Source: a virus
Taxonomy: Duplodnaviria; Caudoviricetes
Length of the DNA: 64,000 bases
Direction: 5' to 3' (one strand)
Virus record (IMG/VR): IMGVR_UViG_3300029288_000081
Location: 107,467 to 171,466 of that record
The position numbers were made by a program, and so were the translations under genes. Positions 36,025-62,813 of the stretch are shown here, one piece after another (the stretch's first letter is position 1; every line of letters starts with the position of its first letter). The notes beneath the pieces are model-generated. The model was not told the DNA's origin and ran no database searches. It saw only the letters and a program-made list of their open reading frames with translations.

Positions 36025-36675
36025 GTGAGCGTAGAGCGTGCGAGACTCCATGCGGGCGCCTGGGCCGGTCACTTCGACATGCTCAGAGCACACCTGTATG
36101 CGCCCACCTTCAACGAGGCGATCGGAACCACGGAGCCATACCGTGGGACCGATCACACCGTGGCGGTGATGATCCAGCTCGCCAAGGGTCTCGTCGACCC
36201 TCGGGCGATGGTGCAGAGCGCGCTTCAGGGAGAGCGGAGCATCCGCTTCCGAAGGCACACCGAGCAGATCATCAACAATCTGCGGCCCAAGGACTACACG
36301 TCCGAAGTCATCGCCATCAGCAGGTGGTGGGGCAACGCGGGCCGATACACACGGGACCCACTACACGTCGAGCTGATCCGTGCTCCGGACCGTCTCCTCG
36401 ACGACGCGCTTGCCGGCAGACTCCTGGTCGACTGCGACGATCTGGCGCTCGCCATCGCGACGTCGTGCCTGACCATCGGGGCTCGCGCACAGTTCGTCAC
36501 CGTGGGCTTCAAGCCGCGCCTGCCGGGCCAGCCGAAGGTCCACACGCACGTCTTCGCTCGGGCCCAGGACCCCAAGAGCAAGGTCTGGTGGGTGCTCGAC
36601 CCGGTCGCCGGCCGTAAGACGGGCGACATGCTGCGTCGCGTGAAGCAGTACACGATCTTCGAGGTGGACCGATGA
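36025..36675 (+). CDS. Transglutaminase-like cysteine protease (candidate virion maturation protease)
   Basis: RYTRDP...VDCDDLA...HTHVF...WWVLDP gives a Cys-His-Asp triad of the transglutaminase-like superfamily. Confidence 0.82.
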   Translation: MSVERARLHAGAWAGHFDMLRAHLYAPTFNEAIGTTEPYRGTDHTVAVMIQLAKGLVDPRAMVQSALQGERSIRFRRHTEQIINNLRPKDYTSEVIAISRWWGNAGRYTRDPLHVELIRAPDRLLDDALAGRLLVDCDDLALAIATSCLTIGARAQFVTVGFKPRLPGQPKVHTHVFARAQDPKSKVWWVLDPVAGRKTGDMLRRVKQYTIFEVDR

Positions 36676-36986
36676 GCAGGTACTACGACGGACCGGGACT
36701 CGGTGTTTCTGCGCTGGGGCAGGCCATCGACTCCTCACCGCTGACGATCTCGGTCCGCCCGACGGGCGCACTGATCGGCGCATGGTGGAGCCTCTCGACC
36801 GTGAGCGGCCTCCTCAGCGCCTACCACGGCTACCGCCGCAACGACGGCAACCTTGCGTGGGCACTCGCATGGTTCCTCGCGGGCAGCGCGCTGCCCGTCA
36901 TTGTGCCGGTCATCGCCTTCACGCAGGGCTACGCCAAGCCCGAAAGCATCTCGGCGAACAGGCGCCGCCGCAGGAGCCGTCGATGA
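36672..36986 (+). CDS. Small membrane protein with Arg tail
   Basis: Two hydrophobic segments, AYHGYRRN, and the C-terminus ISANRRRRRSRR. Confidence 0.75.
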   Translation: MSRYYDGPGLGVSALGQAIDSSPLTISVRPTGALIGAWWSLSTVSGLLSAYHGYRRNDGNLAWALAWFLAGSALPVIVPVIAFTQGYAKPESISANRRRRRSRR

Positions 36987-37732
36987 GCTACTTCAACGGA
37001 CACAGCCGCACCGGGCTCATGGGACTCGGAGCCGTCGCTGACGAACAGGAGCCCATCCGCCTGGGCGCCCGAGCGAAGGAAGACCCGATCCTGTCGGCCG
37101 CATCGTTGATCGCGTCCTCGGTCCTCGTGCGCATGGCCGGCGTGCCCAAGCATCGGCGCCTTGCCGAGATGATCATCATCCTCAATGCAGGACGCCCTGG
37201 GTCTGGGGACGCAGCGGGTGTCGACTACCGCCGTCGCGCCGCCGCCGCGCCGGACAAGAAGGACCAGGCGATGTTCGACGCGGTTCGCGCGGCGGTCGCC
37301 AACGAGCTGGTTCGCCGGACGCTGAAGAGGGGTCCCGCTTCTCTCTCTGGCCTTGGGCAGACACTCGCAGAGGCGCGTGGCCAGACCAGCCGTGGCGTCA
37401 ACGATGCGCAGGCAGTCTTCTGCACCTACATCGCTGGAACATCCGCGATGGTCGGCGGGTACGTCGATCAGCTCGCAAGCGGAGGCACGCAGAACACGGG
37501 CAACATCACCCGTGCGTCGGGTGCGGCTGCGGCCACCGGCGGATGCGGTGCTGGCCAGCTGGTCATCCAGGGCGAGAACGCTCTGGCACAGGCTCGACTC
37601 GCGCAGAGCGGACAGGCCGCCGCGGCGCTCGCGGCTGCTGCGCGGGAAGCCACGTTCATGAAGTTCGCTCTGGTGGGCGGTGGCCTGCTGGGTGCGATGA
37701 TCCTCGGCTACGTCGTCGTCAAGAAGATGTGA
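36983..37732 (+). CDS. Virion membrane protein, paralog A
   Basis: MSYF...LMGLG...LSGLGQ with a C-terminal TM. Confidence 0.75.
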   Translation: MSYFNGHSRTGLMGLGAVADEQEPIRLGARAKEDPILSAASLIASSVLVRMAGVPKHRRLAEMIIILNAGRPGSGDAAGVDYRRRAAAAPDKKDQAMFDAVRAAVANELVRRTLKRGPASLSGLGQTLAEARGQTSRGVNDAQAVFCTYIAGTSAMVGGYVDQLASGGTQNTGNITRASGAAAATGGCGAGQLVIQGENALAQARLAQSGQAAAALAAAAREATFMKFALVGGGLLGAMILGYVVVKKM

Positions 37733-38439
37733 TGAGCTACGCATCGACAGGATCGGGTCAGGCCGCAGTGCGCGTTGGCAGCGCTGCACAGAGCGATCTT
37801 GTGCTCGCGAACGCGTCGCTCATCGCGTCGAAGATCATGCTTGGGGCAGCAAAGAAGCCGGCACGCATCCGAGCTGCGTTCATCGCGAACAAGCTCGACG
37901 CGATGCGCCCGGGGCTCGCTCGCGAGGTGGCCACCTCGCGTCGCCGCCTCGTCGCACAAGGCAAGGCTCCCGACCAGGCCGCGTTCGACGCGATGCGGCT
38001 CGCTATCGCGAACATGAACATGGCAGCGGGGATCGACTCCCTTCGCGTGTCGGCGGCCAAGGAGCACGGCGCAGAGGCCTTCAGCGGTCTCGGGCAGATG
38101 GCACCGAACGACCGCGCGACAGCGTGTACGGTGTCGGCCGGCGCCCAGGTGGTCGGCGGGATCGCAAGCATCGTCCCGGTCTACGGGACGATCATCGGTG
38201 GCATCATCAGTATCGGGTCCTCGATCGCTGGCGGAGCACTCGACTGCACGCGTGAACAGCGAGAAGCTGCGGCTGCGGCTGCGCAGGCTCAGGGGAATCT
38301 CGTTGCAGCGCAACAGGCAGCGGCAGCGCAGGCGGCGGCGCAGGCGGAAGCAACGAGCGGATCGCGAAGGCGCGTGTACATCATCGGAGGCGGCGCACTC
38401 GTCGTCGCTCTCGGAATCGGGTATCTCCTGCTGAGCTGA
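37732..38439 (+). CDS. Virion membrane protein, paralog B
   Basis: MSYA...ASLIAS...DQAAFDAMR...FSGLGQ with a C-terminal TM. Confidence 0.75.
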   Translation: MSYASTGSGQAAVRVGSAAQSDLVLANASLIASKIMLGAAKKPARIRAAFIANKLDAMRPGLAREVATSRRRLVAQGKAPDQAAFDAMRLAIANMNMAAGIDSLRVSAAKEHGAEAFSGLGQMAPNDRATACTVSAGAQVVGGIASIVPVYGTIIGGIISIGSSIAGGALDCTREQREAAAAAAQAQGNLVAAQQAAAAQAAAQAEATSGSRRRVYIIGGGALVVALGIGYLLLS

Positions 38440-38487
38440 ACGAGTGGATTTCTCACGGAACTGGCTGGGCGCCGAACGGAGTAGAGG

Positions 38488-40232: not shown

Positions 40233-40234
40233 CC

Positions 40235-40579
40235 GTGAGCTACAAGGTCAACAGAGACGTCGGCTACCAGCCCTGGGGCGTCACGAACCCGTGGGTCTTC
40301 GCTGACTACGGTCAGCCGCAGCGCCAGCGCGGTCAGGTCTCGCCGCTCGTCTACACGACGCAGCCGCCCTACCTGCGCTCGGCACACCTCAATCCGCCTC
40401 ACCCGTACTTCCCCTCGTCGCACCTCGGACAGACCTCCGAGGCTGATGCGCGCGGGGCGAGGATGGAAAGGTACGCCCTGGCCGGCGTGGTCTTCGGAGC
40501 GATCTCGCTCTTCATCACCTGGCAGGCCAGCCGCAAGAAGATGGCCGCGAACCGCAAACGCTCGCGCCGCAGCCGCTGA
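40235..40579 (+). CDS. Small virion membrane protein
   Basis: (M)SYKV...HLGQ, TM, then MAANRKRSRRSR. Confidence 0.7.
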   Translation: MSYKVNRDVGYQPWGVTNPWVFADYGQPQRQRGQVSPLVYTTQPPYLRSAHLNPPHPYFPSSHLGQTSEADARGARMERYALAGVVFGAISLFITWQASRKKMAANRKRSRRSR

Positions 40580-40594
40580 GAGGAACAACCACCC

Positions 40595-41410
40595 ATGAGC
40601 TACTACGAAGAAGGCATGATGGGGCTCGGCGACCTGCCGGCCGGCGCAACGATCCCCTCCGGGGCTCAGTACGCGCTCGGCTTCCAGGTCACCGGCCTGA
40701 CGCCCACGACGTCGCCCCAGGCGGTCTCGGCGCTGCGGGCAGTGGTCGGCACGGCGTTCCGCGGGAACCTCGTGGCGGCCGGCTGGGGGCCCGCGTACGG
40801 GGTCCCTTCTGGCCGACTCTACGCGGTGCTCCAGACGGCACGCGGCCTGACCGGCGCCGACATGAACACCGTGGCGCACATGATCACCGGTGCCCTGCCT
40901 TCTCGCCTGCCTGGAACGACGGTGACCAACACCAACTTCCACCTGGTCGGCGGCTCAGGCGGAGGCGCTGCGGAGACGGCAGCGGCCAGCATCACCGGTG
41001 CCATCGACCCCGTCACCGGACTCCTCACCGCCCTCACGTCAGGCACTCCCGCTACCTACCCTGGGGCCGACGCTGGCTACCCCATCGCCACAGAGCCCGC
41101 CGAGAACTTCTTCACCCAGAGCGTGGGCGGCGTGCCGGTGTGGGGCCTGCTCGCGGGCGGCGTGGTGGCGATCGGCGCCATTGCGTACGTCTTCATGGGC
41201 AAGCCCAAGACAGCGGCGACGGTGACGGCGAACCGCAAGAGCAAGCGCGGGAAGAAGCAGCATCGCTGGCGCAATCGCCAGGGACAGTGGCACGTCGGCG
41301 GCGGGTACGGCCGCGAACGCGGTCAGGGACGAGGCGGCCGTGATCGGGTCCGTCGGTCGTCGTCGGATGGGCCGTCATGGCTGAACACGAACGGTCGGAG
41401 GACACGATGA
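40595..41410 (+). CDS. Virion membrane protein
   Basis: MSYYEEGMMGLGD, TM, then VTANRKSKR...NGRRTR. Confidence 0.75.
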   Translation: MSYYEEGMMGLGDLPAGATIPSGAQYALGFQVTGLTPTTSPQAVSALRAVVGTAFRGNLVAAGWGPAYGVPSGRLYAVLQTARGLTGADMNTVAHMITGALPSRLPGTTVTNTNFHLVGGSGGGAAETAAASITGAIDPVTGLLTALTSGTPATYPGADAGYPIATEPAENFFTQSVGGVPVWGLLAGGVVAIGAIAYVFMGKPKTAATVTANRKSKRGKKQHRWRNRQGQWHVGGGYGRERGQGRGGRDRVRRSSSDGPSWLNTNGRRTR

Positions 41411-42618
41411 GCTACGCAGGACTCGGACAGATTCTCGCCAACATCGGCGCTCGCATGACAGGCGCCGTCGTGTCGCCGACCCCCAGCCGCGTGGTTGTGG
41501 CACCCTCTCGCCCCAGCAGCCCCATCGTCGTGACGCTGCCCCCGCGACCGAGCGGCGGTGCCGTGGTGGTGACCAGGGCTCCGGCAGCAGACGCGCTCAC
41601 AGCAGCAGCGATCGCCAAGGCCAACGTCGACCGCGCGTTCCGCGCGTATGCGGCGACCAGCTACAACGATCCTCTCGCACGCAACAACCGTAGGCAGGCC
41701 CTGCTCGCAGCGGGTCGCGAGATGGTCAGGAAGTTCATGGCGGTGAGGCCCGCCACGGAGACCGAGCGTCTGCGACTGCGGGCCCTGGAAGCGACCGCAC
41801 TCGCGAGTTCGCAGACGCGGCAGCGGTGCTTCAGCACCGGCAGCAACGGCTGCGGGCGCTTCGCCGCGAACGAGCCGCCCGGTCCGGTCAAGGTGAACGA
41901 CGAGTTCGTGGCCGTGACGCGTCCGCTGGACAACCTCCTGCGGCTCAACGTCACGCCCATGGCCATGCCGGTTCCCCGGGTGCCGCCGATCGTCATCGCC
42001 GGTCGTCTGATCCAGACCGTCTCTCCGCGCGCGGCGCAGCTCGTGGTGGACTCGGCCAAGGCCGGAACGGCAACGGCGGCTGCCAAGCTGGAAGCTGACG
42101 TGAAGGTCTCCCAGGAGGTCACCAAGCCCGAGACGAAGGTCGCCGCGGACAAGGTCGTCGTGGCCCAGGCGGGCGCGGACGCGGCAGCCAAGGCAGCGGA
42201 AGACCTCGCCATGAAGGCCAAGATGGCCGCCGAGGAGGCCGACAAGGTCGCCCAGGCTGCCAAGGAGGCAGGGACCATCGCCGCCGCTCAGGCGGCAGCC
42301 ACGGCAGCCCAGGCGGCAGAGCAGGCCAAGGTGGTGGCAGAGCAGGCCACAGTGGCCGCTGCCGAGGTCGCCACGGTCGCGGACGAGGCACGGAGCGAGC
42401 TGGAGACGGTCGCTGCGGAGACCAACGACGTGCCCGCTCAGGAGGCGACGACCGAGGCGACCATGACGGTCGCAACGACCGGCCTCGGACCGCTCGGCGT
42501 GTCGTGGAAGATCTGGGGCCTCGGCGCCGCAGCGCTCGTCGGCGGCTACTTCCTCCTCAACAGCCGAGCCATGGCGAAGAACCGCCGTCGCGTTCGTCGG
42601 AACCGGAGGCACCGGTGA
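41407..42618 (+). CDS. Virion membrane protein with Ala-rich coiled coil
   Basis: MSYAGLGQ, TM, then MAKNRRRVRRNRRHR. Confidence 0.75.
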   Translation: MSYAGLGQILANIGARMTGAVVSPTPSRVVVAPSRPSSPIVVTLPPRPSGGAVVVTRAPAADALTAAAIAKANVDRAFRAYAATSYNDPLARNNRRQALLAAGREMVRKFMAVRPATETERLRLRALEATALASSQTRQRCFSTGSNGCGRFAANEPPGPVKVNDEFVAVTRPLDNLLRLNVTPMAMPVPRVPPIVIAGRLIQTVSPRAAQLVVDSAKAGTATAAAKLEADVKVSQEVTKPETKVAADKVVVAQAGADAAAKAAEDLAMKAKMAAEEADKVAQAAKEAGTIAAAQAAATAAQAAEQAKVVAEQATVAAAEVATVADEARSELETVAAETNDVPAQEATTEATMTVATTGLGPLGVSWKIWGLGAAALVGGYFLLNSRAMAKNRRRVRRNRRHR

Positions 42619-42923
42619 GCCTCTTCGGCACCCACCTCTTCGCGAGCGACGCTCTCGGTCAGGTCACCCTGCCCGAGCCCGCGAGCGACGCTCTCATGAG
42701 CGAGCTGCGGGTCACCGGCGGCCGCTCGCGCACGGTCGAGCCCTCCAGCACACCGGACGTGCCCAAGGAGACGGGCGACAAGATGCTCTCCGGCGGAGGA
42801 CTGCCGACCTGGGCACCCTACGCGATGGTCGGCGGCGGCATCATCTTCGCTGGGCTGATGATCTGGTCCTCGATGCGGCGCCCGACCCCCAACCGTCGTC
42901 GCCGCCACAGGAGATCCCGATGA
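42615..42923 (+). CDS. Small virion membrane protein
   Basis: DALGQ, TM, then PTPNRRRRHRRSR. Confidence 0.7.
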   Translation: MSLFGTHLFASDALGQVTLPEPASDALMSELRVTGGRSRTVEPSSTPDVPKETGDKMLSGGGLPTWAPYAMVGGGIIFAGLMIWSSMRRPTPNRRRRHRRSR

Positions 42924-43492
42924 GCTACTTCGAGACACTTCCCGGCATGGGACGCCCCAGCTACAGCGACGGCATGGGCGCTGTCTTCCCCACGAGGGAA
43001 GAGAGCCCCGACATGCGGGCTCTTCAGCAGGGCCTCCAGCGCATGAACCTGCTCCCGGTCGACGGAGCCACCGGCCGCTGGACCATCGCCACGGCAGCCG
43101 CGCTCGCAAAGGCCAACAAGAACCTCGGTCGCACCGCAGCACCGCGCACCGGGTTCACCACCACCAACCGCGGCGCGAACGTCGATGTCCCGGACGATCT
43201 CGTCGCGGCCATCCTGAACACGCCCGCTGCGCCTCCTGCGGCACCTCCCCCCGGTCCCGATCCGGCCGCCACGCCGCCCCCGGGCATGATGCTCATCGCG
43301 CCGACCGCGCCGCCCCCCTCGCTTCTGCCTCCCGCCATCGAGGAGCCGTCTCGCACGAAGCTCTACGTCGCGGCAGGCCTCGCGGTGGTGGTGGTCGGTG
43401 GGATCGCCGCCTACGCGCTCTGGCCGAAGAAGAAGAGCACGCCGAACAGGCGCCGTGTGCGTCGCAACCGGCGTCGGCGCTCGCGTCGCTGA
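42920..43492 (+). CDS. Membrane protein with peptidoglycan-binding-like domain
   Basis: MRALQQGLQRMNLLPVDGATGRWTIATAAAL, Pro-rich linker, TM, then TPNRRRVRRN. Confidence 0.65.
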   Translation: MSYFETLPGMGRPSYSDGMGAVFPTREESPDMRALQQGLQRMNLLPVDGATGRWTIATAAALAKANKNLGRTAAPRTGFTTTNRGANVDVPDDLVAAILNTPAAPPAAPPPGPDPAATPPPGMMLIAPTAPPPSLLPPAIEEPSRTKLYVAAGLAVVVVGGIAAYALWPKKKSTPNRRRVRRNRRRRSRR

Positions 43493-44285: not shown

Positions 44286-45026
44286 ATGAGCTACGCAGGA
44301 CTCGGACAGGACTTGGTGCCCACTGCAACCGTGGGACGCAGCACGTACCGTCGGCAGACGGGCGACTACGTCCGAGTCCCTGCGACGTGGGCTCAGCGCG
44401 CCGCGAACGCCGGCAACCGCTACAACAGCGGGTCGGCTCCGCTCATCGCGGTGGACGGCAAGGCCGGACCGGTCACGATCGCCGCTCTTCGGACCCTCTC
44501 GCAGCAGTTCTCCTCGGGCCTGCCGGTGACCAACGACCCGGTGGCGAGCCGCGTCACCGACAACGTGGTCATGCCGGTCGCGCTGGAGAACTCGCTCGCT
44601 GCGAAGCACATCGTCGCCGACCCCCGACCCTCGGCAGCGACGCGCCGCACGCCTGCGCCGACGAGCGGCGGCGGCACGACGACCACGGTGCCGATCCCCG
44701 GCGCCACGCCTGCCGCCACGCCTGCCGACGAGATCATCCTCGACGAAGGTTCCTCGTCGGGCATCCAGGGTCTCATCGCCCGCTACGGCATCTGGCCGTG
44801 GGCGGCTGGCGGCGCAGCGCTCGTCGCCCTCGGCATCTACTTCGTCGCGACCGGACCTGGGATGCGTCGGAACAGCAGCAAGCGCAGGGGCGGGTGGAAC
44901 TACCCATGCCCGGCGTGTGGCGAGCCCGAGCTGGGCAAGGCGGGACACGGGAGCGGCTGTGTGCTCGCGAAGAGGACCGCCGCGCTCTCGGTGCCCAAGC
45001 GCAAGAAGAGGAAGGCCGTCCGATGA
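44286..45026 (+). CDS. Membrane protein with peptidoglycan-binding-like motif
   Basis: MSYAGLGQ...IAVDGKAGPVTIAALR, TM, then MRRN...CPAC. Confidence 0.7.
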   Translation: MSYAGLGQDLVPTATVGRSTYRRQTGDYVRVPATWAQRAANAGNRYNSGSAPLIAVDGKAGPVTIAALRTLSQQFSSGLPVTNDPVASRVTDNVVMPVALENSLAAKHIVADPRPSAATRRTPAPTSGGGTTTTVPIPGATPAATPADEIILDEGSSSGIQGLIARYGIWPWAAGGAALVALGIYFVATGPGMRRNSSKRRGGWNYPCPACGEPELGKAGHGSGCVLAKRTAALSVPKRKKRKAVR

Positions 45027-45637
45027 GCTACTTCACCAGCACCGCCAAGCGCTCGCGCACGCACAGCCTTCACGGCATGGGCTGTGGCTGCGGGATGAAT
45101 GGCCTCGGGGACATGATCGCGCTTCCGGCAACACTGGCCACCCCCGGCGAGATGGTTGCAGCGATCGATCTGATCAACCGCAGCGTGACATCGCTGAACG
45201 CAGACGTGCAGGCGAACGCACAGCGCCTGCATGCCACGCAGGACGGCATCAGGTTCTTCTCGCAGTGGCAGATCTTCAAGGCCGAGTGGATCACGTTCTT
45301 CACGGACCACAACCGAGGAACCTCCTTCGCCACTCGCATCGGGCCGCTGGAGTACGGAAGCGGGCAGTTGGCCGCGCAGATTCGTGACAAGGCCACGGCC
45401 TACAACGCCATGGAACAGCGCTATCGCAACCTCGGCCTCGAACCGACGATCACGGCTGCGGTTCCGCTGGAGGAGAGGTTGTCCAACCTCGGGACCGGCG
45501 CGTTCATCACGGCGGGGCTGGGCATCGCAGCGGTGGTGGCCGTCGGGTACCTCCTGAGCAACTACGCCAAGATCAAGATGATGTCGCGGCTCGCGTTCAA
45601 CGGGCGCCGCAGTCGCCGAAGGAAGAGGAGTCGCTGA
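45023..45637 (+). CDS. Virion membrane protein
   Basis: MSYF...LHGMGCGCGMNGLGD, TM, then LAFNGRRSRRRKRSR. Confidence 0.75.
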   Translation: MSYFTSTAKRSRTHSLHGMGCGCGMNGLGDMIALPATLATPGEMVAAIDLINRSVTSLNADVQANAQRLHATQDGIRFFSQWQIFKAEWITFFTDHNRGTSFATRIGPLEYGSGQLAAQIRDKATAYNAMEQRYRNLGLEPTITAAVPLEERLSNLGTGAFITAGLGIAAVVAVGYLLSNYAKIKMMSRLAFNGRRSRRRKRSR

Positions 45638-45639
45638 TC

Positions 45640-46020
45640 ATGTCGTACATGCGAGGAATGGGAACCACAGCCACGGACGTCGCCGCCGTCACCACAGCGG
45701 TGGGCACTGCCGCGGCGCAGCTCATCGCGGCGGCGCGAGGCACACCGGCGACCACGCCGTACTCGACGGAGGGAGCGATCAACCCCGCCACGGGCCAGCC
45801 CTACGGGACGCTGCTCAATCCCGCCACGGGCATGCCCTACGGGGCGATCGACCCGGCCACCGGGCGCCCCTACGGCGAGCCGGCGCCGTCCTACACGCCG
45901 TACATCGTCGGCGGCCTCGTGCTCCTGGGCATCGGCGCCTTCTTCTTCACGCGGAAGCGGAGCGTGGCGAAGAACAGGCGTCGCGTGCGCCGGAACCGTC
46001 GCCGCTCGCGCAGGAGCTGA
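45640..46020 (+). CDS. Small virion membrane protein with 3x (N/D)PATGxPYG repeats
   Basis: MSYMRGMG, TM, then VAKNRRRVRRNRRRSRRS. Confidence 0.75.
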   Translation: MSYMRGMGTTATDVAAVTTAVGTAAAQLIAAARGTPATTPYSTEGAINPATGQPYGTLLNPATGMPYGAIDPATGRPYGEPAPSYTPYIVGGLVLLGIGAFFFTRKRSVAKNRRRVRRNRRRSRRS

Positions 46021-55126: not shown

Positions 55127-55963
55127 ATGCCCAAGATCGTCGGTACCCGTGAGCGCATCCACCAGCCGTTCTACGATTCGCTCCTGCGCGTCGATGGCAG
55201 CGGCGACCTCCGTCAGGCGAACGTCGGCATCTTCGGAGCCGTCCAGAGCCGCTCGCAGCTCTTCACCAAGCAGGGCGCGGACATCGCCGTCAGCAACCTG
55301 ACCACCGGCGGGTTCTTCCCGTCCGACCAGACGTTCGTGACCCTCGCGGTCCGTGTCTGGACCTACTTCCGGTTCAACCGGGAGTCGTCGCGCACCGGCA
55401 CCGGCGGCCAGGTGTGGCCGACCATCAACGGTGGCGCCGCAGCGCCCGTGGGCGTGGGCCCCGGCGTCGAGGGCGACCGCATCGCGCGCGTCCACAAGCT
55501 CTACCACCAGACGCAGAACCAGCTGTTCTGGCAGTTCCAGGCCGGGGACAAGCCCCAGCTGACCACCTACACGGCGTACACGCCGTTCGCGGGCGGCCTC
55601 GACGGCTTCTTCTCCGACTCGCGCCTCCCGCGCGCGAACAACGGCATCCCGACGTCGTCGGCGCTCATGCGCCTGGCGCGTCCGATCCTCATCCCGCCCC
55701 GCCAGGGCTTCGTCGTGATCGCCATCGCGAGCCCGATCGGCCAGGCGACCGGCGCGTCGGTCATCGAGCAGCTGAACGGCTCGGTCCCGAACAACGACGC
55801 CTGGGGTCCGGTCAGCGGCAACGCTGGCACGATCACCGGCACGCCCAGCGCGGCGACGCTCGACGGCTCGTGGTCGAACGGCCTCGCGGTCGCCGGCCGC
55901 GACGACATCGAGAAGGACGTCAAGTACCTGATCGACGGCATCCACTCGCGCGACGTGCTCTGA
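55127..55963 (+). CDS. Putative major capsid protein (beta-rich, jelly-roll-like)
   Basis: 278 aa with no TM, alternating beta-strand pattern (QPFYD...SNLTTGGFFP...FVTLAVRV...NGIP...LARPILIPPRQGFVV...LIDGIHSRDV) and strongly C/G-ending codons. It is flanked by a structured leader and a terminator-like hairpin. The fold is inferred. Confidence 0.62.
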   Translation: MPKIVGTRERIHQPFYDSLLRVDGSGDLRQANVGIFGAVQSRSQLFTKQGADIAVSNLTTGGFFPSDQTFVTLAVRVWTYFRFNRESSRTGTGGQVWPTINGGAAAPVGVGPGVEGDRIARVHKLYHQTQNQLFWQFQAGDKPQLTTYTAYTPFAGGLDGFFSDSRLPRANNGIPTSSALMRLARPILIPPRQGFVVIAIASPIGQATGASVIEQLNGSVPNNDAWGPVSGNAGTITGTPSAATLDGSWSNGLAVAGRDDIEKDVKYLIDGIHSRDVL

Positions 55964-55975
55964 GGAGCGACTGCT

Positions 55976-56137: not shown

Positions 56138-57097
56138 ATGCCGATCGATCCGAACGACCCCGAGGTCGCCGCGTACCTGCGCCGCATGGCGAACAAGCAG
56201 TCGCGTGTCGAAGCGCAGATGGAAGCGCTCAACCAGCGCTACCAGGCGATGGCCGCCGCGGCCGAGGACGACAAGATCGAGCTGAAGCGTCTCGGCCAAG
56301 CCCTCAAGAAGGCTGCCGCGCGCATCCGGTACATCGAGGACATCCCGGGCAAGCGCGTGCCCTACTTCCTGGGCTTCCAGATCCCGATCCCCGGGCAGTC
56401 GAACCCGACGGTCTCGCTCGCGGGCTCGCGCCTGAGCGACTCCAAGCAGGTGAGCCAGGACGGTCCGTTCGTCGCGACGACCTACCTCAGCGCCTTCCTG
56501 CTCCGCACCTACTCGCTCGGGCCCTACGACGGGACCGGTGAGAACCCGGGTCGCCCGAACGATGCGGACGTGGGTTCCGAGGTCAGCACGCCTCTCAGCG
56601 GCCGGTTCCGGCCGGTGTCGTCGAGCGCAGACCCGTTCTCGGGCGCCTACATCGGCCCCGGCATCGGCGGCATCCCGGCGAACGCGGCCAGCCTCTCGGC
56701 GGCGCAGGCCGTGCAGACCTTCCGCCCCGGCATCATCGACTTCCTCTTCGAGGTCGCCGACGAGGGTGTGGACCGGCTGCGCCAGAACCAGATTCCGATC
56801 CCGAGCCGCTACCTCTTCAGCGAGTTCGACCGCCCACTCTACCTGCCGGTCTCGGACTTCTTCGAGCGCGGCTCGTCGATCCGCTTCAGCGCAACGCTGA
56901 CGCGCGACATCGGCTTCGCCGAGATCAACTACGCCTCGCTCCCGAACGGGTTCCAGGAGGGCGCCGTGAGCCCGCCGCCGGACCCGATCGCGAATGACCC
57001 GGTCCAGAGCGGCCGCATGATCGTGGCGCTCGGCGGCACGCTCTACTTCACCATGCTCGGCTACAAGATCCTCCAGGCGCAGAGCCCGGCGGTCTGA
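56138..57097 (+). CDS. Putative second/minor capsid protein (N-terminal coiled coil plus beta-sandwich)
   Basis: VPYFLGFQI...QVSQDGPFVAT...FEVADEGVDRLRQNQIPIP...PLYLPVSDFFERGSSIRF...LYFTMLGYKI. Confidence 0.55.
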   Translation: MPIDPNDPEVAAYLRRMANKQSRVEAQMEALNQRYQAMAAAAEDDKIELKRLGQALKKAAARIRYIEDIPGKRVPYFLGFQIPIPGQSNPTVSLAGSRLSDSKQVSQDGPFVATTYLSAFLLRTYSLGPYDGTGENPGRPNDADVGSEVSTPLSGRFRPVSSSADPFSGAYIGPGIGGIPANAASLSAAQAVQTFRPGIIDFLFEVADEGVDRLRQNQIPIPSRYLFSEFDRPLYLPVSDFFERGSSIRFSATLTRDIGFAEINYASLPNGFQEGAVSPPPDPIANDPVQSGRMIVALGGTLYFTMLGYKILQAQSPAV

Positions 57098-57112
57098 GAA
57101 GGAGACTCCCCG

Positions 57113-57499
57113 ATGGCGTACGCAACCAGGAAGAAGAAGTCGGCAGCGAGCCTCTATCAGGTGGTCTCCGGCAAGACGCACCGTGTCGCAGCTCGCACCA
57201 AGAAGCTCGTGACGGCGCGCAAGCGCGCAGAGGGCCTCGTTCGGCGAGGCAGCAAGCGCGTGAGCATCATGCGCGGCGGCAAGCTCATCGCGACGATGGG
57301 CACGTTCCGCTCGCCTGCGAAGCGGAGGTCGAGCAAGCGCAAGACCTCCGCCGGTCGCCGGACCTCGCGGAAGGCAGCGCGCCGCAGCTCGCGTCGCCGC
57401 TCCTCCGTGCGTCGCCGCTCGTCGAAGCGGCGCGTGAGCAAGAACCGTCGCCGGTCCAGCCGTCGCCGGGTCTCGCGTCGTCGCACGTCGCGTCGCTGA
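57113..57499 (+). CDS. Histone/protamine-like basic protein
   Basis: K/R/S-rich, ends VSKNRRRSSRRRVSRRRTSRR. AAGGAG RBS. Confidence 0.72.
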   Translation: MAYATRKKKSAASLYQVVSGKTHRVAARTKKLVTARKRAEGLVRRGSKRVSIMRGGKLIATMGTFRSPAKRRSSKRKTSAGRRTSRKAARRSSRRRSSVRRRSSKRRVSKNRRRSSRRRVSRRRTSRR

Positions 57500-57505
57500 G
57501 GCGAG

Positions 57506-58129
57506 ATGAGCCGAGTCTCGCCCATCCGGATCGTGCATGGCTTCACCTCGCAGTTGCCGGGGCGGAGCCGCATCTTCTTCCAGCGCGTGTACTTCGCGCA
57601 GATGCCGCATCCGATCCAGAAGGGCACGGGCAACCCGTTCCCGTTCACCATGCCCGTCGCGACCATCGAGGCCCCGAAGCAGCAGTGCGTGATCTTGCGC
57701 GCCGCCGCCTTCAAGGTCTTTCAGCACTCGGGCATCGGGGTCGACGACTACATCGAGACCCCGCCGTCGCGCTCGGCCAGCACCTTCGGGTTCTCCGTGC
57801 GCATCGGCAACCGCGGCCTGACCGACTACAACACCAACGTGTCGCCCGACCCCGGTCAGGTGGCGCCGGTAGCGAGCGGCAACCAGGGAGGGGGACAGGC
57901 AGCCCTGTCGCCCGGAGACGGACGCCTCTACCCCTTCTCGGGCACCATCACGCCGCACCTGGGCACCGACCCGTTCGCAAGCTACATCCGCCCCGGCGAG
58001 CAGATCATGGCATCGGTGACCGTGCTGCGAGAGCCCAACTTCGACGTCCGCTTCTTCAGCGTGGAGCTGAGCGGCTGGCTGGCCGGCGAGGCCGAACTGG
58101 ACAAGATGATCAACGCCCTCTCGGAGTGA
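57506..58129 (+). CDS. Putative minor capsid/penton-like beta-sandwich protein
   Basis: 207 aa, beta-rich, ending YIRPGEQIMASVTVLREPNFDVRFFSVELSGW. Confidence 0.5.
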   Translation: MSRVSPIRIVHGFTSQLPGRSRIFFQRVYFAQMPHPIQKGTGNPFPFTMPVATIEAPKQQCVILRAAAFKVFQHSGIGVDDYIETPPSRSASTFGFSVRIGNRGLTDYNTNVSPDPGQVAPVASGNQGGGQAALSPGDGRLYPFSGTITPHLGTDPFASYIRPGEQIMASVTVLREPNFDVRFFSVELSGWLAGEAELDKMINALSE

Positions 58130-58138
58130 TACGCTTCC

Positions 58139-58254: not shown

Positions 58255-58265
58255 ACCTCCGAGAG

Positions 58266-59971: not shown

Positions 59972-59976
59972 TCGCC

Positions 59977-61506
59977 ATGCTGCTCGACCAGGCCACATCG
60001 AAGGAGCAAGTAGCTGCCGCACTTGAGGCCGGCGACGAAGAGCTGCGCGAGAACATCCAGGAGATCCTCGACAACCTGCGGAGGCGTTGGGACAACGGCC
60101 CCAACTACGACGCCGCATCGGATTACGAGTCGTTTGACATGAAGGACATCGTCGAGAGCGACAACTTCATCGACACCGTGATCCTCAAGAGTCCGTCGCG
60201 CTATGAGCTGGCGCAGATCCCTCGTGAAGATGTCGAGAGTGGCCTACTGCGCGCTGCGGCCAATGCGACCCGTGGCTTCGGCTTCAGAAGTGCCACGAAG
60301 TACGGACCGTTCTACATCGACGAGCGCGGCGGAGACCACTTCTCGTACAAGCTGGATGTCGGCGGCAACTACACGTTCCCCGGCAGCTGGTTCCCCAAGA
60401 AGGCGGAGTTCATCCCCGCAGGCCTTGCCAAGGAGTTCTGGGATTCCCTCGGCAGCGAGTACACCTGGGGCTACACAGACCACGTCGATAGGAACGAAGA
60501 CAACTACGGCTATGGACCTGGCACCGAGTCCTACGTAGAGGCGAGCGAGAGCGACTTCGACGAGTGGTGCCGCGATCAGGTCGCCGAGTACGTCACCACG
60601 GCTGTCAGAAGGCAGCCGGAGAAAGCGAAGGAGATCTTCTTCAACGGCCTTGCCGAAGAAGACAAGGCGCTCGCCGAGAAGTTGAAGAGCGCCGGCCTGC
60701 CTGACGAGGAGATCCTCGACTTCGCCACCTCGTGGTTCCAGGAGGGCCGCGAAGACGTGCTCGCGACCGTCCGCGACTACTTCGCCACGCTCGAAATCGG
60801 CACCGGCGTCCCGCACGAGGTGCTTGCCGAGTTCTCGAAAGACGACGTCGTCAACATGGGCATCCGGAAAGGAGTGCTCTTCGAGAACGCTCCGTGGAAG
60901 CTGATCAAGCTCCATCCGTCTGACCTCCGACTGGAGGGCACGCTGATGGGCCACTGCGTCGGCGACAAGGGCATGGGGTACATCAGCGCCGTGAACAATG
61001 GCGAGATCGAGATCTGGAGCCTCCGCTCCCGAGACAACAAGCCGCGCTTCACGCTGGAAGTCGACGCGAAGTTCTACCGCGCCGACGATGAGGATGACCC
61101 GGGCCTCCGGACGCCAGAGCTTCAGACGCTCACTCCTGCTTTCTACCGAGCCCGTGCGATCAAGCAGCTCAAGGGCAAGGCAAACCGCCAGCCTGGCTAT
61201 GCTGACGTTCGGAAGACCGGTGGCATCAAGTTTCCTGACGAAGTGTTCTTCTGGGCGCACGCGCTCCAGCGCCTTGGTGTGAACCCGGAGCAGGTGGACG
61301 ACTTCGACGCGTTCCGCGAGGAGCAGGAGGAGGACCAGCTCAAGCTCCAGGCGAACAGCGGCGCGGTCTGCACAGGCTTCGACATGCCGTACAGGCCGCT
61401 CCTGCTCCCACACGAGGTCGCACCGAACCGCCGGTCGAGTCGCCGGTCGAGCAGCAGGCGTCGCGGCAGCAAGCGTCGGTCGAGCCGAAGGTCGAGTCGT
61501 CGGTGA
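59977..61506 (+). CDS. PcfJ-like domain protein with Arg tail
   Basis: DLRLEGTLMGHCVG..Y..IWSLRSRDNKPRFTLEV..IKQLKGKANR, ending VAPNRRSSRRSSSRRRGSKRRSSRRSSRR. Confidence 0.78.
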   Translation: MLLDQATSKEQVAAALEAGDEELRENIQEILDNLRRRWDNGPNYDAASDYESFDMKDIVESDNFIDTVILKSPSRYELAQIPREDVESGLLRAAANATRGFGFRSATKYGPFYIDERGGDHFSYKLDVGGNYTFPGSWFPKKAEFIPAGLAKEFWDSLGSEYTWGYTDHVDRNEDNYGYGPGTESYVEASESDFDEWCRDQVAEYVTTAVRRQPEKAKEIFFNGLAEEDKALAEKLKSAGLPDEEILDFATSWFQEGREDVLATVRDYFATLEIGTGVPHEVLAEFSKDDVVNMGIRKGVLFENAPWKLIKLHPSDLRLEGTLMGHCVGDKGMGYISAVNNGEIEIWSLRSRDNKPRFTLEVDAKFYRADDEDDPGLRTPELQTLTPAFYRARAIKQLKGKANRQPGYADVRKTGGIKFPDEVFFWAHALQRLGVNPEQVDDFDAFREEQEEDQLKLQANSGAVCTGFDMPYRPLLLPHEVAPNRRSSRRSSSRRRGSKRRSSRRSSRR

Positions 61507-62312
61507 CCACCAAGAAGCGCAAGACGAGCCGTCGTCGCACCTCGGGCGCCTTCTATGGCTGGACGGGTGGGGTCATCCAGAGTCCGCAGGAGCTGCTCAT
61601 GGCTTCGGGCATGGACGGCGACGCGGTGCGGCTCGTGTCCCTTCAGCAGCGCTCGATGGCGGCCTACGACGCGGGGCGGCTTGCTGAGGGTGACCGCCTC
61701 GCCGCGAAGGCGGATGTGCTCGTCGAGAAGATCGACGACGCCCTGACCGCGCTCGAAGAAGAGGGCGAGCCGCAGCAGGCTCCGGTGATTCAGAGTGTCG
61801 TTCGCGCGATGGCTGAGGCCTGGCAGGCGTGCATGTTCAACGCGTGGGACACGATGTGTCGTGACACGGTCGAGGAGTACCGGCGAACGGGACACGGACG
61901 CTGGGTGCCGCCGAGCCGAACGTTCCTGGGACCGCCGAGCCGGTGGATCGGTATCCGAACGAGCCCCGAGGCCGTGCGTCAGGCTGCGGAGCACTCAGAG
62001 TGGTACCGAGAGGAGCCCGGCTACTTCGAGGAGCCGTCTCTCGTGCATCAGCTTCGAGAGATCTCCGGCAACCGGGAAGCCGACGGGCTACTTCTGCTCG
62101 ACGCGGCAGAGGACGCGTGGCTCAGCACCATCGCAACGGCAGCGCGCATCAGGGCAGGCGCTGCGAAGCGACGGATCAGCGGCGTCGACCCGGTGAAGGA
62201 AGCCAAGAAGTTCGCGAGACGCATGACGAGGCGCAAGAAGCGCATGAGTCGCCCCGTCCCGAACCGTCGCCGCAAGACGAGCCGCCGCCGATCGAGTAGG
62301 ATGCGATCATGA
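61503..62312 (+). CDS. Hypothetical protein with basic ends
   Basis: Ends PVPNRRRKTSRRRSSRMRS. Confidence 0.65.
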   Translation: MTTKKRKTSRRRTSGAFYGWTGGVIQSPQELLMASGMDGDAVRLVSLQQRSMAAYDAGRLAEGDRLAAKADVLVEKIDDALTALEEEGEPQQAPVIQSVVRAMAEAWQACMFNAWDTMCRDTVEEYRRTGHGRWVPPSRTFLGPPSRWIGIRTSPEAVRQAAEHSEWYREEPGYFEEPSLVHQLREISGNREADGLLLLDAAEDAWLSTIATAARIRAGAAKRRISGVDPVKEAKKFARRMTRRKKRMSRPVPNRRRKTSRRRSSRMRS

Positions 62313-62578
62313 GCTACCACCGCACCGGCCTCGGCACGCTCCCGGCATTCTCGTCGACCCAGGCGTTCGCCCAGGCGGTCGACCCGTACGCGGCACGCAC
62401 ATCTCCGCCGAGCAGCCTCTACGCACCCTACGGCTGGGGCCCCGACTTCAACGTCGGCATGCCCATGAACTACAGCCACCACATCGGCTACAGCCGAACT
62501 CCTGTGCCCGGCGCTCGGCGCGTCGGTCCGATGTACGACCGCGTCGGCGGCCTGAGCGGCATCCTCGCCGCGCTGTAG
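62309..62578 (+). CDS. Small MSY-GLG virion protein
   Basis: MSYHRTGLGT...VGGLSG. Confidence 0.65.
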   Translation: MSYHRTGLGTLPAFSSTQAFAQAVDPYAARTSPPSSLYAPYGWGPDFNVGMPMNYSHHIGYSRTPVPGARRVGPMYDRVGGLSGILAAL

Positions 62579-62585
62579 GAGCGTC

Positions 62586-62813
62586 ATGAGCTACAAGCTG
62601 AAGGTCCGATACGGGACGGCCGTCGAGCCGTGGCACACGCTCGCGCCGTGGTACCGGGCAGGCACGACGGCGATGGGGCAGATGACGTGGCCCGGCGTGT
62701 TCGGCATGGAACCGCACCTTCTTGCAGCAGGGAGCTTCGGAGCAGGGATGCTCGCGATGTATCTGCTGCGCCGCATGCGCATGAAGGCGAACCGTCGCCC
62801 TCGTCGTCGCTGA
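62586..62813 (+). CDS. Small virion membrane protein
   Basis: MSYK...TAMGQ, TM, then MKANRRPRRR. Confidence 0.7.
   Translation: MSYKLKVRYGTAVEPWHTLAPWYRAGTTAMGQMTWPGVFGMEPHLLAAGSFGAGMLAMYLLRRMRMKANRRPRRR

What the first reader, a model, noticed from the sequence alone, without database searches (positions are those of the whole stretch)
36672..62813. Shared (V/M/L/I)xxN plus Arg-rich tag on more than 20 unrelated proteins: candidate virion cargo-loading and maturation system
Seen: the Arg/Ser tracts of the right-arm proteins almost always begin right after an Asn, usually with a hydrophobic residue three positions earlier. Examples are ISAN-RRRRRSRR, MAAN-RKRSRR, VTAN-RK, MAKN-RRR, VRRN-RR, LAFN-GRR, VAKN-RRR, VKAN-RR, LRRN-P, MKRN-K, LAAN-GRRR, VVMN-GRRR, MTAN-RR, VSKN-RRR, VAPN-RR and MKAN-RR, with variants such as PTPN and PVKN. 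The tag is on membrane proteins and also on soluble proteins (PcfJ-like 59977, zinc finger 48116, ORF 61503), so it is not just the positive-inside rule. Known: viral maturation proteases read short motifs with a fixed P1 and an upstream determinant (T4 gp21 L/I-x-E; adenain M/I/L at P4). Inference: the Arg tail is a portable DNA-binding packaging tag, and an Asn-specific cut releases both the cargo and protamine-like peptides inside the particle. I do not know of a described system like this.
Basis: partly seen in the sequence, partly recalled or inferred. Interest (0 to 1): 0.92.

Follow-up and report, generated by a model that had tools for sequence, protein, structure and literature searches.

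The report
Asparagine-capped arginine tags on virus proteins
In an uncultivated 171-kb tailless bacterial virus, about 25 otherwise unrelated proteins carry an arginine-rich stretch that is always joined to the rest of the protein by the same four-residue signature ending in asparagine; the pattern is real and conserved. It most likely marks DNA-binding modules that may be cut off when the particle matures, but no cutting has been shown.

Summary
In the right arm of the window (31.7-64 kb, + strand), 18-21 proteins carry an Arg-rich tract joined to the protein body by hydrophobic-x-x-Asn.

- **Enrichment:** [VMLI]..NG?[RK][RK] occurs 20 times against 1.2±1.2 in shuffles; the left arm has 1 against 0.9.
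- **Position -3:** three residues before a tract-bounding Asn is V/M/L/I in 74% of cases, against 26% for all other Asn. Two complete relatives show the same (pooled p about 1e-22).
- **Protein level:** Arg codons vary, the protein bodies are unrelated, and homologues keep the Asn.
- **Direction:** internal and N-terminal tracts end in the same signature, so Asn always lies at the tag/body junction, in one direction.

The genome is a complete uncultivated virus. No HK97 capsid or terminase family was detected. It has a jelly-roll capsid-like protein and about 20 tail-anchored membrane proteins.

Best reading (about 40%): portable polycationic genome-binding modules whose Asn signature is a maturation cleavage site. 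Cleavage, the enzyme and virion location are all untested. The only conserved enzyme candidate is a transglutaminase-like Cys-His-Asp protein.

Follow-up agents in this scan noted the same signature earlier on other genomes of this lineage.

The parts
36025..36675 (+). Transglutaminase-like Cys-His-Asp protein. It is the candidate processing enzyme and the first gene of the membrane-protein block; its stop overlaps the start of the first tagged gene.
   Evidence: Found in all 4 complete relatives and in 2 distant ones at 46-82% identity. Cys119, His157 and Asp174 are invariant and in transglutaminase order. Pfam Transglut_core matches only below cut-off, in 3 of 7 orthologues, best E 4.8e-4. 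The window copy itself gives no Pfam hit.
36672..36986 (+). Small membrane protein with a C-terminal tag (I-S-A-N followed by an Arg run).
40235..40579 (+). Small MSY-type protein with a weak C-terminal hydrophobic helix and the tag M-A-A-N + Arg/Lys.
40595..41410 (+). MSY/GLG membrane protein; the tag V-T-A-N + basic tract follows the TM helix.
41377..42618 (+). 413-aa protein with a C-terminal helix and a double tag (M-A-K-N, then V-R-R-N).
42615..42923 (+). Small membrane protein with the tag P-T-P-N + Arg. The start is uncertain (42615 or 42696).
42920..43492 (+). MSY/GLG membrane protein with the tag S-T-P-N + Arg, then V-R-R-N + Arg.
   Evidence: The L007 orthologue keeps V-T-S-N + Arg.
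45023..45637 (+). MSY/GLG membrane protein with the tag L-A-F-N-G + Arg.
   Evidence: All three database homologues at 36-38% identity, and the L011 orthologue, keep x-F-N before the Arg run.
45640..46020 (+). MSY/GLG membrane protein with the tag V-A-K-N + Arg, then V-R-R-N + Arg.
   Evidence: The L011 orthologue lacks the tail.
46024..46860 (+). Protein with an N-terminal TM helix followed by an internal Arg/Ser tract. The tract is bounded by V-K-A-N on one side and L-R-R-N-P on the other.
46857..48119 (+). 420-aa multidomain protein. An internal tract bounded by M-K-R-N and V-R-R-N-P lies just before its TM helix.
   Evidence: Weak DUF3140 match.
48116..48853 (+). Cys-rich (zinc-ribbon-like) protein with no TM helix, carrying a C-terminal tag (P-V-K-N + Arg/Ser/Thr).
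49345..49707 (+). Small membrane protein with a short tag (P-I-R-N + four Arg).
   Evidence: Five orthologues end in short Lys/Arg tails without Asn, so the tag is facultative.
51304..54078 (+). Giant basic core-type protein (924 aa, net charge +187). It has tandem Asn-bounded Arg/Ser units separated by x-K-Y-V-V-hydrophobic-N spacers, then a hydrophobic C-terminal domain.
   Evidence: The last junction, hydrophobic-basic-basic-Asn before the C-domain, is kept in 10 orthologues; these include relatives whose capsid-like protein is only 30-38% identical and one with 37% GC.
54141..54959 (+). Paralogue of the C-domain of 51304, with its own N-terminal Arg leader that ends in V-H-R-N and V-L-R-N.
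   Evidence: The four paralogues of this type that have the hydrophobic domain (in L007-L010) start with an Arg leader ending in Asn just before that domain; a fifth, short L008 copy lacks both.
55127..55963 (+). Jelly-roll capsid-like protein, the most conserved gene of the lineage.
   Evidence: More than 250 metagenomic homologues. AF2 model pLDDT 77, pTM 0.77. Best structural match is the SPV1 capsid protein 6oj0 (Z 7.0, 137 residues aligned); then HCIV-1, HHIV-2, P23-77 VP17, PRD1 and FLiP capsid proteins.
56138..57097 (+). Second conserved beta-rich late protein, next to the capsid-like gene.
   Evidence: 58-78% identical orthologues in syntenic positions. No Pfam or PHROG match. Fold not tested.
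57113..57499 (+). Small protamine-like protein (128 aa, net +51) ending in V-S-K-N + Arg/Ser.
57506..58129 (+). Third conserved beta-rich late protein.
   Evidence: 37-48% identical orthologues in syntenic positions. Fold not tested.
59977..61506 (+). PcfJ-like soluble protein with a 26-residue C-terminal tag (V-A-P-N + Arg/Ser).
   Evidence: Pfam PcfJ E 1.1e-4, below cut-off.. Two paralogues elsewhere in the genome carry pentapeptide repeats instead of a tag.
61503..62312 (+). Soluble protein with a basic N-terminus and a C-terminal tag (P-V-P-N + Arg).
62586..62813 (+). 75-aa MSY membrane protein with the tag M-K-A-N + Arg.
62820..63767 (+). SprT-like zinc metalloprotease. Considered as the processing enzyme and set aside.
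   Evidence: Pfam SprT-like E 6e-14. Found in only 1 of 4 complete tag-bearing relatives.
11265..12089 (-). Left-arm protein with the same C-terminal tag (V-A-K-N + Arg). It shows that the tag is not confined to the right arm.

Best explanation
The Arg-rich tracts are portable polycationic modules of a large, tailless, membrane-containing virus of bacteria with a jelly-roll capsid-like protein.

Shown: their composition (+4 to +14 per tail; +187 for the 924-aa protein; +51 for the 128-aa protein), their position and their conservation.

Inferred: they bind the viral DNA. That would condense the genome and tether to it about a dozen tail-anchored membrane proteins and a few soluble proteins.

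Each module is joined to its carrier by hydrophobic-x-x-Asn. Asn is always the last residue before the boundary, whether the module is C-terminal, internal or N-terminal. I read this as a P4-P1 protease site. During maturation, an enzyme that also needs the polybasic (probably DNA-bound) context would cut after Asn. This would free protamine-like peptides of about 7-35 residues from the polyprotein-like core protein and separate carriers from their tags.

The conserved transglutaminase-like Cys-His-Asp protein at 36025-36675 is the leading candidate enzyme. The cleavage, the enzyme and the side of the membrane that the tails face are all inference.
For: - **Enrichment and position specificity:**. 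Replicated in two complete relatives (23/28 and 19/24 hydrophobic at -3; pooled p 1.3e-22).
- **Directionality:** tract-ending Asn also have the hydrophobic residue at -3, inside the Arg run, where such residues are otherwise rare (15/25 pooled, p 3.4e-4).
- **Variable next residue:** the residue after Asn is R, G, P, T, Q, A, L, F or M, while Asn is fixed.
- **Tandem units:** Asn-bounded Arg units occur in every orthologue of the 924-aa protein. The junction before its C-domain is conserved down to relatives whose capsid-like protein is 30-38% identical, including one with 37% GC that uses Lys.
- **Leaders:** the four paralogues of 54141 that have the hydrophobic domain begin with an Arg leader ending in Asn just before that domain.
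- **Homologues:** homologues of 45023 at 36-38% identity keep the Asn.
- **Protein level:** codon variety and unrelated bodies.
- **Virion context:** jelly-roll capsid-like fold. No HK97 capsid or Terminase_6N family detected. About 20 C-terminal-TM proteins.
- **Candidate enzyme:** conserved, next to the block, with an invariant Cys-His-Asp.
- **Established knowledge (mine, not tested here):** adenovirus core precursors pVII and pX are Arg-rich and are cut by adenain at sites with M/I/L at P4. Picornavirus 3C sites combine an aliphatic P4 with a carboxamide (Gln) P1. Several viral coat proteins cleave at Asn.
Against: - There is no direct evidence of cleavage.
- No legumain, caspase-like, T4 gp21-like, adenain-like or Ulp1-like protease was detected in the virus, and no legumain in five MAGs that hold relatives.
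- The transglutaminase-like assignment is below Pfam's cut-off, and that fold is not known to prefer Asn at P1.
- Tails come and go among orthologues, so they are not essential to each carrier.
- Basic residues after a TM helix are expected anyway.
- Hydrophobic-x-x-Asn away from Arg tracts is at background (860/3313), so any enzyme would need a further determinant.
- If the viral membrane derives from the cell membrane as in PRD1 (my knowledge), cytoplasmic tails would face the capsid, not the DNA.
- Asn inside Arg-rich nucleic-acid-binding helices (HIV Rev, bZIP basic regions; my knowledge) makes base contacts without any cleavage.
Confidence: 0.4

Rival explanations
1. No processing. The tails are permanent anchors that hold membrane and core proteins on the packaged DNA (or on acidic lipids). 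Hydrophobic-x-x-Asn is a structural punctuation, for example a helix cap or hinge that sets off a flexible or helical Arg run, or Asn contacts nucleic acid.
For: - Tails sit 8-15 residues after the TM helix, following a short Lys/Arg cluster. This fits a juxtamembrane linker.
- Seven-residue spacing of Asn and Val in several tails would put both on one face of a helix.
- No protease with suitable known specificity was found.
- My knowledge, not tested here: Asn is a preferred helix-capping residue and a base-contacting residue in Arg-rich motifs.
Against: - A cap or a contact residue does not explain why Ser, Thr and Asp, which are equally good caps, are almost never used.
- It does not explain why the motif keeps one direction on both sides of a tract.
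- It does not explain why the hydrophobic residue lies outside the tract in C-terminal tags but inside it in N-terminal ones.
- It does not explain why the residue after Asn is free to vary.
Confidence: 0.3
2. Asn is a site of side-chain or backbone chemistry other than proteolysis by a dedicated protease. The possibilities are deamidation or transamidation (cross-linking to Lys) by the transglutaminase-like enzyme, or spontaneous succinimide formation at Asn-Gly or Asn-Pro acting as a timer or self-cleavage.
For: - A conserved transglutaminase-like protein heads the block.
- Asn-Gly and Asn-Pro are frequent at junctions.
- My knowledge: HK97 capsids cross-link through Asn-Lys isopeptide bonds; reovirus mu1 and FlhB/YscU self-cleave at Asn-Pro.
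Against: - Most junctions are Asn-Arg, which is not especially labile.
- Transglutaminases act on Gln, not Asn.
- Tandem Asn-bounded units have no obvious use in cross-linking.
- Tails are poor in Lys acceptors.
Confidence: 0.12
3. The signature is a sorting or topology signal read by an assembly or insertion factor, for example one that recruits late proteins to the DNA-rich assembly site or fixes the orientation of tail-anchored proteins. It involves no cleavage and has no role inside the particle.
For: - Concentration in the late, structural arm.
- Presence on soluble proteins that need not be structural.
- Facultative presence among orthologues.
Against: - The densest arrays are in the giant basic protein, which needs no sorting tag repeated a dozen times.
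- No receptor candidate was identified.
Confidence: 0.1
4. By-product of sequence composition or gene layout: high GC favouring Arg codons, Shine-Dalgarno sequences of the next gene embedded in gene ends, or unrecognised paralogy.
For: - 10 of 15 right-arm tails carry an AGGAG-type site for the next gene in their last 30 nt, which helps explain endings of the Arg-Ser-Arg-Arg type.
- The genome has 66% GC.
Against: - Shuffles keep composition, and still z = 16.
- A distant relative of equal GC (66%) has only short Lys tails.
- A 37%-GC relative keeps the Asn junctions.
- Asn and the -3 residue lie upstream of the ribosome-binding sites.
- Bodies are unrelated once tracts are masked.
Confidence: 0.03

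Closest known systems
Adenovirus core proteins pVII and pX/Mu processed by adenain (my knowledge of the family)
   Same: Arg-rich, DNA-bound core precursors. A short site with a hydrophobic residue at P4. Release of a small protamine-like peptide. The protease works on DNA-bound substrates. The virion belongs to the jelly-roll capsid world.
   Different: The site here ends in Asn, not Gly-Gly or Gly-x-Gly. No clan CE protease was detected. The tag is spread over about 25 proteins, including a dozen membrane proteins. The host is bacterial. Cleavage is unproven.
Phage T4 capsid targeting sequence with gp21, and the prohead protease gp245 of giant phage SPN3US (PMC10052503)
   Same: A short shared peptide directs diverse proteins into the head and is removed at a simple motif. 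Many head proteins share the motif.
   Different: Those are tailed HK97-fold phages with N-terminal propeptides cut after Glu by an S77-type serine protease. Neither that protease nor the HK97 capsid family was detected here. The tag here is polycationic and mostly C-terminal.
Arg-rich genome-binding tails and protamine-like proteins of viruses: hepatitis B core C-terminal domain, nodavirus capsid arms, baculovirus P6.9 (PMC12159748), ascovirus P64 (PMC6163548)
   Same: Arg/Ser-rich, low-complexity, charge-neutralising tracts attached to structural proteins or standing alone.
   Different: None of those has a fixed boundary signature, and none is shared by dozens of unrelated proteins of one virus. 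None is from a bacterial virus.
Asparagine-specific cleavage: legumain (C13) and the asparagine peptide lyases of viral coats (nodavirus, reovirus mu1) and of FlhB/YscU (my knowledge)
   Same: The peptide bond after Asn is the one broken. Several cases are virion maturation steps. Asn-Pro junctions occur here too.
   Different: No C13 family match in the virus or in five MAGs. Lyases cut once, within a folded domain, not at many sites in disordered polybasic tracts.
Capsid proteins of internal-membrane tailless viruses: Portogloboviridae (SPV1, 6oj0), Sphaerolipoviridae/Simuloviridae (HCIV-1, HHIV-2, P23-77)
   Same: Best structural matches of the capsid-like protein at 55127. A block of small membrane proteins lies next to the capsid genes.
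   Different: Those genomes are 16-30 kb, against 150-300 kb here. The Z-scores (5-7) lie in the range where only a common jelly-roll arrangement is certain.
Sortase- and exosortase-type C-terminal sorting signals (LPXTG, PEP-CTERM)
   Same: A short motif, a TM helix and an Arg-rich tail at the C-terminus, with the tail removed after recognition.
   Different: In those signals the motif precedes the helix. Here it follows the helix and abuts the Arg run, and non-membrane proteins carry it too.

Membership tests
Adenain-type core-protein maturation | Virus encodes a clan CE cysteine protease (Peptidase_C5 or Ulp1-like C48) | tested here: not met
   No match at E<=1 in the complete own genome.
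Adenain-type core-protein maturation | Sites of the type (M/I/L)-x-G-G|x or (M/I/L)-x-G-x|G | tested here: not met
   Boundaries are hydrophobic-x-x-Asn. Only the hydrophobic P4 is shared.
Adenain-type core-protein maturation | Arg-rich DNA-binding core precursors | tested here: met
   51304 (net +187) and 57113 (net +51) lie next to the capsid-like genes. DNA binding itself was not tested.
T4-type capsid targeting sequence and prohead protease | S77 prohead protease and HK97-fold capsid protein | tested here: not met
   No Peptidase_S77 and no Phage_capsid match in the own genome.
T4-type capsid targeting sequence and prohead protease | N-terminal propeptide removed after Glu | tested here: not met
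   Tags are mostly C-terminal, and the boundary residue is Asn.
Legumain / asparaginyl endopeptidase substrates | A Peptidase_C13 enzyme available from the virus or the host | tested here: not met
   None in the virus. None in five MAGs holding relatives; these are incomplete genomes and their link to the host rests on binning only.
Asparagine peptide lyases | Self-cleavage at Asn within a folded domain that positions the Asn | not testable with these tools
   Junctions lie in low-complexity tracts. No structure or chemistry is available.
Transglutaminase-like cysteine protease superfamily (protein at 36025) | Cys, His and Asp in that order, within the C-x-acidic-aromatic/aliphatic-A, H-x-hydrophobic and hydrophobic-D-P contexts | tested here: met
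   Cys119, His157 and Asp174 are invariant in 7 orthologues at 41-82% identity.
Transglutaminase-like cysteine protease superfamily (protein at 36025) | Profile match to Pfam Transglut_core above the curated cut-off | tested here: inconclusive
   3 of 7 orthologues match, best E 4.8e-4. The window copy gives no hit. The profile of the seven finds nothing in PDB sequences.
Jelly-roll capsid, internal-membrane tailless viruses | Capsid protein with a jelly-roll fold | tested here: met
   AF2 pLDDT 77. Best matches are SPV1 6oj0 (Z 7.0, rmsd 3.6, 137 aligned; Foldseek probability 0.82-0.85), then HCIV-1, HHIV-2, P23-77 VP17, PRD1 and FLiP. The Z-scores are modest.
Jelly-roll capsid, internal-membrane tailless viruses | Lipid membrane in the particle | not testable with these tools
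   Inferred only, from about 20 small proteins with a C-terminal TM helix next to the capsid-like genes.
Positive-inside tails of membrane proteins | Basic residues only as a short flank of a TM helix | tested here: not met
   Tags reach 26 residues. They occur on proteins without a TM helix and as N-terminal leaders. A distant relative with the same GC content shows the plain short Lys form.
Sortase/exosortase C-terminal sorting signals | Recognition motif on the N-terminal side of the TM helix | tested here: not met
   The motif follows the helix by 8-15 residues.

The most novel reading that the evidence does not exclude
A lineage of very large, tailless, membrane-containing bacterial viruses uses a maturation endopeptidase with Asn at P1 and an aliphatic residue at P4. 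The enzyme acts only in a polybasic, DNA-bound context. It would release protamine-like peptides from a polyprotein-like core protein and detach some two dozen tagged membrane and soluble proteins from the genome. That would be a bacterial counterpart of adenovirus core maturation, with a new specificity and possibly a new (transglutaminase-like) protease type.
Probability: 0.35. Interest if true: 0.85.

Novelty: new variant of a known kind. Interest (0 to 1): 0.68.

Why it matters
Bacterial viruses are generally thought to package naked DNA, and protein-condensed genomes with processed Arg-rich core proteins are a hallmark of adenoviruses and large eukaryotic DNA viruses. This is an uncultivated lineage with 150-300-kb genomes in which no tailed-phage capsid or terminase family was detected, and with more than 250 metagenomic relatives of its capsid-like protein. 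It carries a giant protamine-like protein and a shared, directional tag on about 25 proteins.

If the tag is a cleavage-bounded DNA-binding module, three things follow:
- It gives a directly testable model for how such particles load, condense and later release their genome.
- It points to a protease specificity (after Asn) not described for virus maturation enzymes other than self-cleaving coats.
- It offers a short portable peptide for targeting proteins to DNA or into particles.

Even if nothing is cut, the signature is a clean sequence marker for finding virion and nucleoid proteins in this lineage.

Tried and rejected
- **First fold attempt:** the first AF2 run on the capsid-like protein, with 25 close homologues, gave pLDDT 43 and was discarded. 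A 48-sequence alignment built after an exhaustive profile search worked.
- **Family and sequence searches:** Pfam and PHROGs gave nothing for most right-arm proteins. PDB sequence searches gave nothing useful for the capsid-like profile, the 800-aa protein, the transglutaminase-like profile or a tail peptide. The Atlas feature search gave only unnamed viral clusters.
- **SprT-like protease at 62820 as the enzyme:** attractive because such enzymes are DNA-dependent, but it is present in only 1 of 4 complete tag-bearing relatives.
- **The conserved protein at 49704, just upstream of the giant basic protein:** its alignment shows no plausible catalytic triad, and its Cys is not conserved.
- **Known protease and tailed-phage families:** legumain, caspase-like, T4 gp21-like, adenain and Ulp1-like families, HK97 capsid and Terminase_6N were not found in the own genome. 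No legumain was found in five MAGs.
- **Complex prediction:** the transglutaminase-like protein with the last 60 residues of 59977 returned no verdict (score 0.02, controls not run). This is no evidence either way.
- **DNA-level repeat explanation:** rejected by codon variety.
- **Paralogy:** rejected by BLAST with tracts masked.
- **Cleavage at every domain junction (notes on 46857 and on a polyvalent protein):** outside Arg tracts the hydrophobic residue at -3 is at background, also for Asn-Gly and Asn-Pro. In 46857, 6 of 14 Asn have it, which by my own estimate is not significant.
- **Literature:** searches for a described system of this kind, or for this virus lineage, found none.
- **Not searched:** a packaging ATPase. 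I make no claim about one.

Full report
**Setting.** The window is the last 64 kb of a single 171,466-bp virus record with 66% GC, rated complete. GC3 frame analysis and a simple codon-usage gene caller give about 252 genes. In the window, a left arm (1-30.6 kb, minus strand) holds replication-type genes:
- an SNF2/ResIII helicase;
- a 5'-3' exonuclease;
- a DUF2201 metallopeptidase/VWA gene interrupted by an intein;
- a MoxR-like AAA ATPase.

A right arm (31.7-64 kb, plus strand) holds about 42 tightly packed genes with AGGAG-type ribosome sites. Almost none has a Pfam or PHROG match.

**The observation.** Most tagged proteins are small. They have a C-terminal hydrophobic helix, a short Lys/Arg cluster, then hydrophobic-x-x-Asn and an Arg run of 4-25 residues up to the stop codon. 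The same junction is found on proteins without a hydrophobic helix: 48116, 57113, 59977 and 61503.

The Arg codons after the invariant AAC vary among AGG, CGC, CGT and CGA, so the conservation is in the protein. With basic tracts masked, BLAST relates only 51304 and 54141.

**Statistics.**
- With two basic residues required after Asn, it gives 20 against 1.2±1.2, and 1 against 0.9 in the left arm.
- Genome-wide, 32 Asn directly precede an Arg tract, in 25 proteins. Position -3 is V/M/L/I in 23 of 31, whereas positions -4, -2 and -1 are not hydrophobic. The other 1289 Asn show 25% (p 1.4e-8).
- I called genes the same way in two complete relatives (160 and 153 kb) and found 23/28 and 19/24. Pooled p is 1.3e-22.

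Arg tracts that are internal or N-terminal end in the same signature. The hydrophobic residue then lies inside the Arg run and Asn is the last residue before the body (15 of 25 pooled, p 3.4e-4). So Asn sits exactly at the tag/body boundary whichever side the tag is on. The motif keeps one direction, and the residue after Asn varies freely.

The 924-aa protein at 51304 (net charge +187) is a chain of such units, separated by a conserved seven-residue spacer that itself ends in Asn. Its orthologues in nine other contigs show the same design with different numbers of units. The last junction, just before the conserved hydrophobic C-terminal domain, is kept in all of them. These include relatives whose capsid-like protein is only 30-38% identical, and one of 37% GC whose basic region is Lys/Ala-rich.

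Four paralogues of 54141 in relatives have the hydrophobic domain. Each starts with an Arg leader that ends in Asn just before that domain. Homologues of 45023 at 36-38% identity keep the Asn.

**Limits of the pattern.**
- Tails are facultative. Five orthologues of 49345, and one of 45640, end in short Lys/Arg tails without the signature.
- A distant relative with the same GC content has the same block of tail-anchored proteins but only short Lys tails. Long Asn-capped Arg tails are therefore an elaboration within one subclade, while the junctions in the giant basic protein are older.
- Away from Arg tracts, hydrophobic-x-x-Asn is at background (26% of 3313 Asn), also for Asn-Gly and Asn-Pro. 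The notes that see a cleavage site at every domain junction are not supported, and any enzyme must also read the polybasic context.

**What kind of virus.**
- The most conserved right-arm protein (55127) has more than 250 metagenomic homologues and no family assignment.
- With a deeper alignment, AlphaFold gives pLDDT 77 and pTM 0.77.
- Its best structural matches are jelly-roll capsid proteins of internal-membrane viruses: SPV1 6oj0 (Z 7.0), then HCIV-1, HHIV-2, P23-77 VP17, PRD1 and FLiP. The Z-scores are modest.
- No HK97 capsid or Terminase_6N family match is found.
- Relatives are IMG/VR contigs of 62-298 kb, two of them with terminal repeats, and contigs binned with planctomycete-type and other MAGs.
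- Together with about 20 tail-anchored proteins, this points to a very large, tailless, membrane-containing particle. The membrane itself is inferred.

**Mechanism.** I take the Arg tracts to be genome-binding, charge-neutralising modules (composition shown, binding inferred). I take the boundary signature to be most likely a P4-P1 cleavage site, at about 40%. The grounds are its directionality, the fixed Asn with a free next residue, the tandem Asn-bounded units, and the leaders that stop just before conserved domains.

The only conserved enzyme candidate is the protein at 36025:
- It is found in all complete relatives and in two distant ones, always at the head of the membrane-protein block.
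- It has invariant Cys, His and Asp in transglutaminase order.
- It has sub-threshold Pfam Transglut_core matches in 3 of 7 orthologues.

The SprT-like protease at 62820 is not conserved among tag-bearing relatives. No legumain, caspase-like, gp21-like, adenain-like or Ulp1-like family is detected.

**Rivals.**
- Permanent anchors with a structural cap or hinge (about 30%).
- Asn side-chain chemistry or self-cleavage (about 12%).
- A sorting signal (about 10%).
- A composition or ribosome-site by-product (about 3%). Ribosome sites do lie inside 10 of 15 tails, but they cannot explain the Asn or the -3 residue.

**Comparison with what is known.**
- The nearest functional analogue is adenovirus core maturation: Arg-rich pVII and pX are cut by adenain at sites with a hydrophobic P4 (my knowledge).
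- The nearest phage analogue is the T4 capsid targeting sequence with gp21, and the gp245 system of SPN3US (PMC10052503).
- This case fails the membership tests for both, in protease family, site and capsid type.
- I found no described system with this signature.

**Earlier work in this scan.** Follow-up agents reached the same reading on other genomes of this lineage: e1-5735942, e1-1089494 and e1-5595514. I treated these as leads and repeated the tests here.

Noticed in passing
window 36983, 40235, 40595, 42920, 44286, 45023, 45640, 46024, 62309, 62586 (gene starts) and elsewhere in the genome: Eighteen of 252 proteins start Met-Ser-Tyr, where well under one is expected by chance (my own rough estimate). 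Two relatives have 13/220 and 10/211. Ser is coded by AGC and by TCG/TCC, so the motif is at the protein level. Most of these proteins also have G-(L/M)-G within the first 40 residues. The function is unknown. It co-occurs with the Arg tag but is not tied to it.
   Followed up: partly
window, last 30 nt of right-arm genes with Arg tails (e.g. 36957-36986, 42894-42923, 45991-46020): Ten of 15 Arg tails contain the AGGAG-type ribosome-binding site of the next gene, and stop and start codons often overlap (ATGA). Part of the tail sequence is therefore dual-coded.
   Followed up: yes
window 15841-18333 (-) and 18883-20058 (-): A DUF2201 metallopeptidase/VWA gene is interrupted by an intein with a LAGLIDADG domain, next to a MoxR-like AAA ATPase. 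Inteins or LAGLIDADG domains also sit in a glycosyltransferase gene, and probably in RtcB, elsewhere in the genome.
   Followed up: no
window 31319-31525: GC-rich degenerate tandem repeats (periods 11, 21 and 35-37) lie in the roughly 1.1-kb, 73%-GC gap between the two divergent arms. This may be an origin or a divergent promoter region.
   Followed up: no
window 59977-61506; L001:1360-3033; L004:5482-6948: There are three PcfJ-like paralogues. Two end in pentapeptide repeats, and the third has the Arg tag in that place.
   Followed up: no
window 49704-50447: A protein of unknown function lies just upstream of the giant basic protein in every relative. It has invariant Y-R..K-W and D-Y-K-H motifs and a conserved C-terminal end, and no recognisable catalytic triad.
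   Followed up: partly
L017 (contig binned with a Pseudomonadota MAG) and L018 (37% GC contig): These distant relatives share the capsid-like gene, the giant basic protein and the block of tail-anchored proteins. L017 has only short Lys tails. L018 has a Lys/Ala-rich, histone-H1-like basic region that still has Asn-bounded units before the hydrophobic domain.
   Followed up: partly
window 51304-54078 and orthologues: The C-terminal third of the giant basic protein carries repeats of G-E-Y-V-x-Q-P-(M/L)-S-G and an almost invariant C-terminal end shared with 54141. The function is unknown.
   Followed up: no
window 48853-49290: A NUDIX hydrolase (Pfam E 1.3e-18) sits inside the late block and is conserved in position in relatives.
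   Followed up: no
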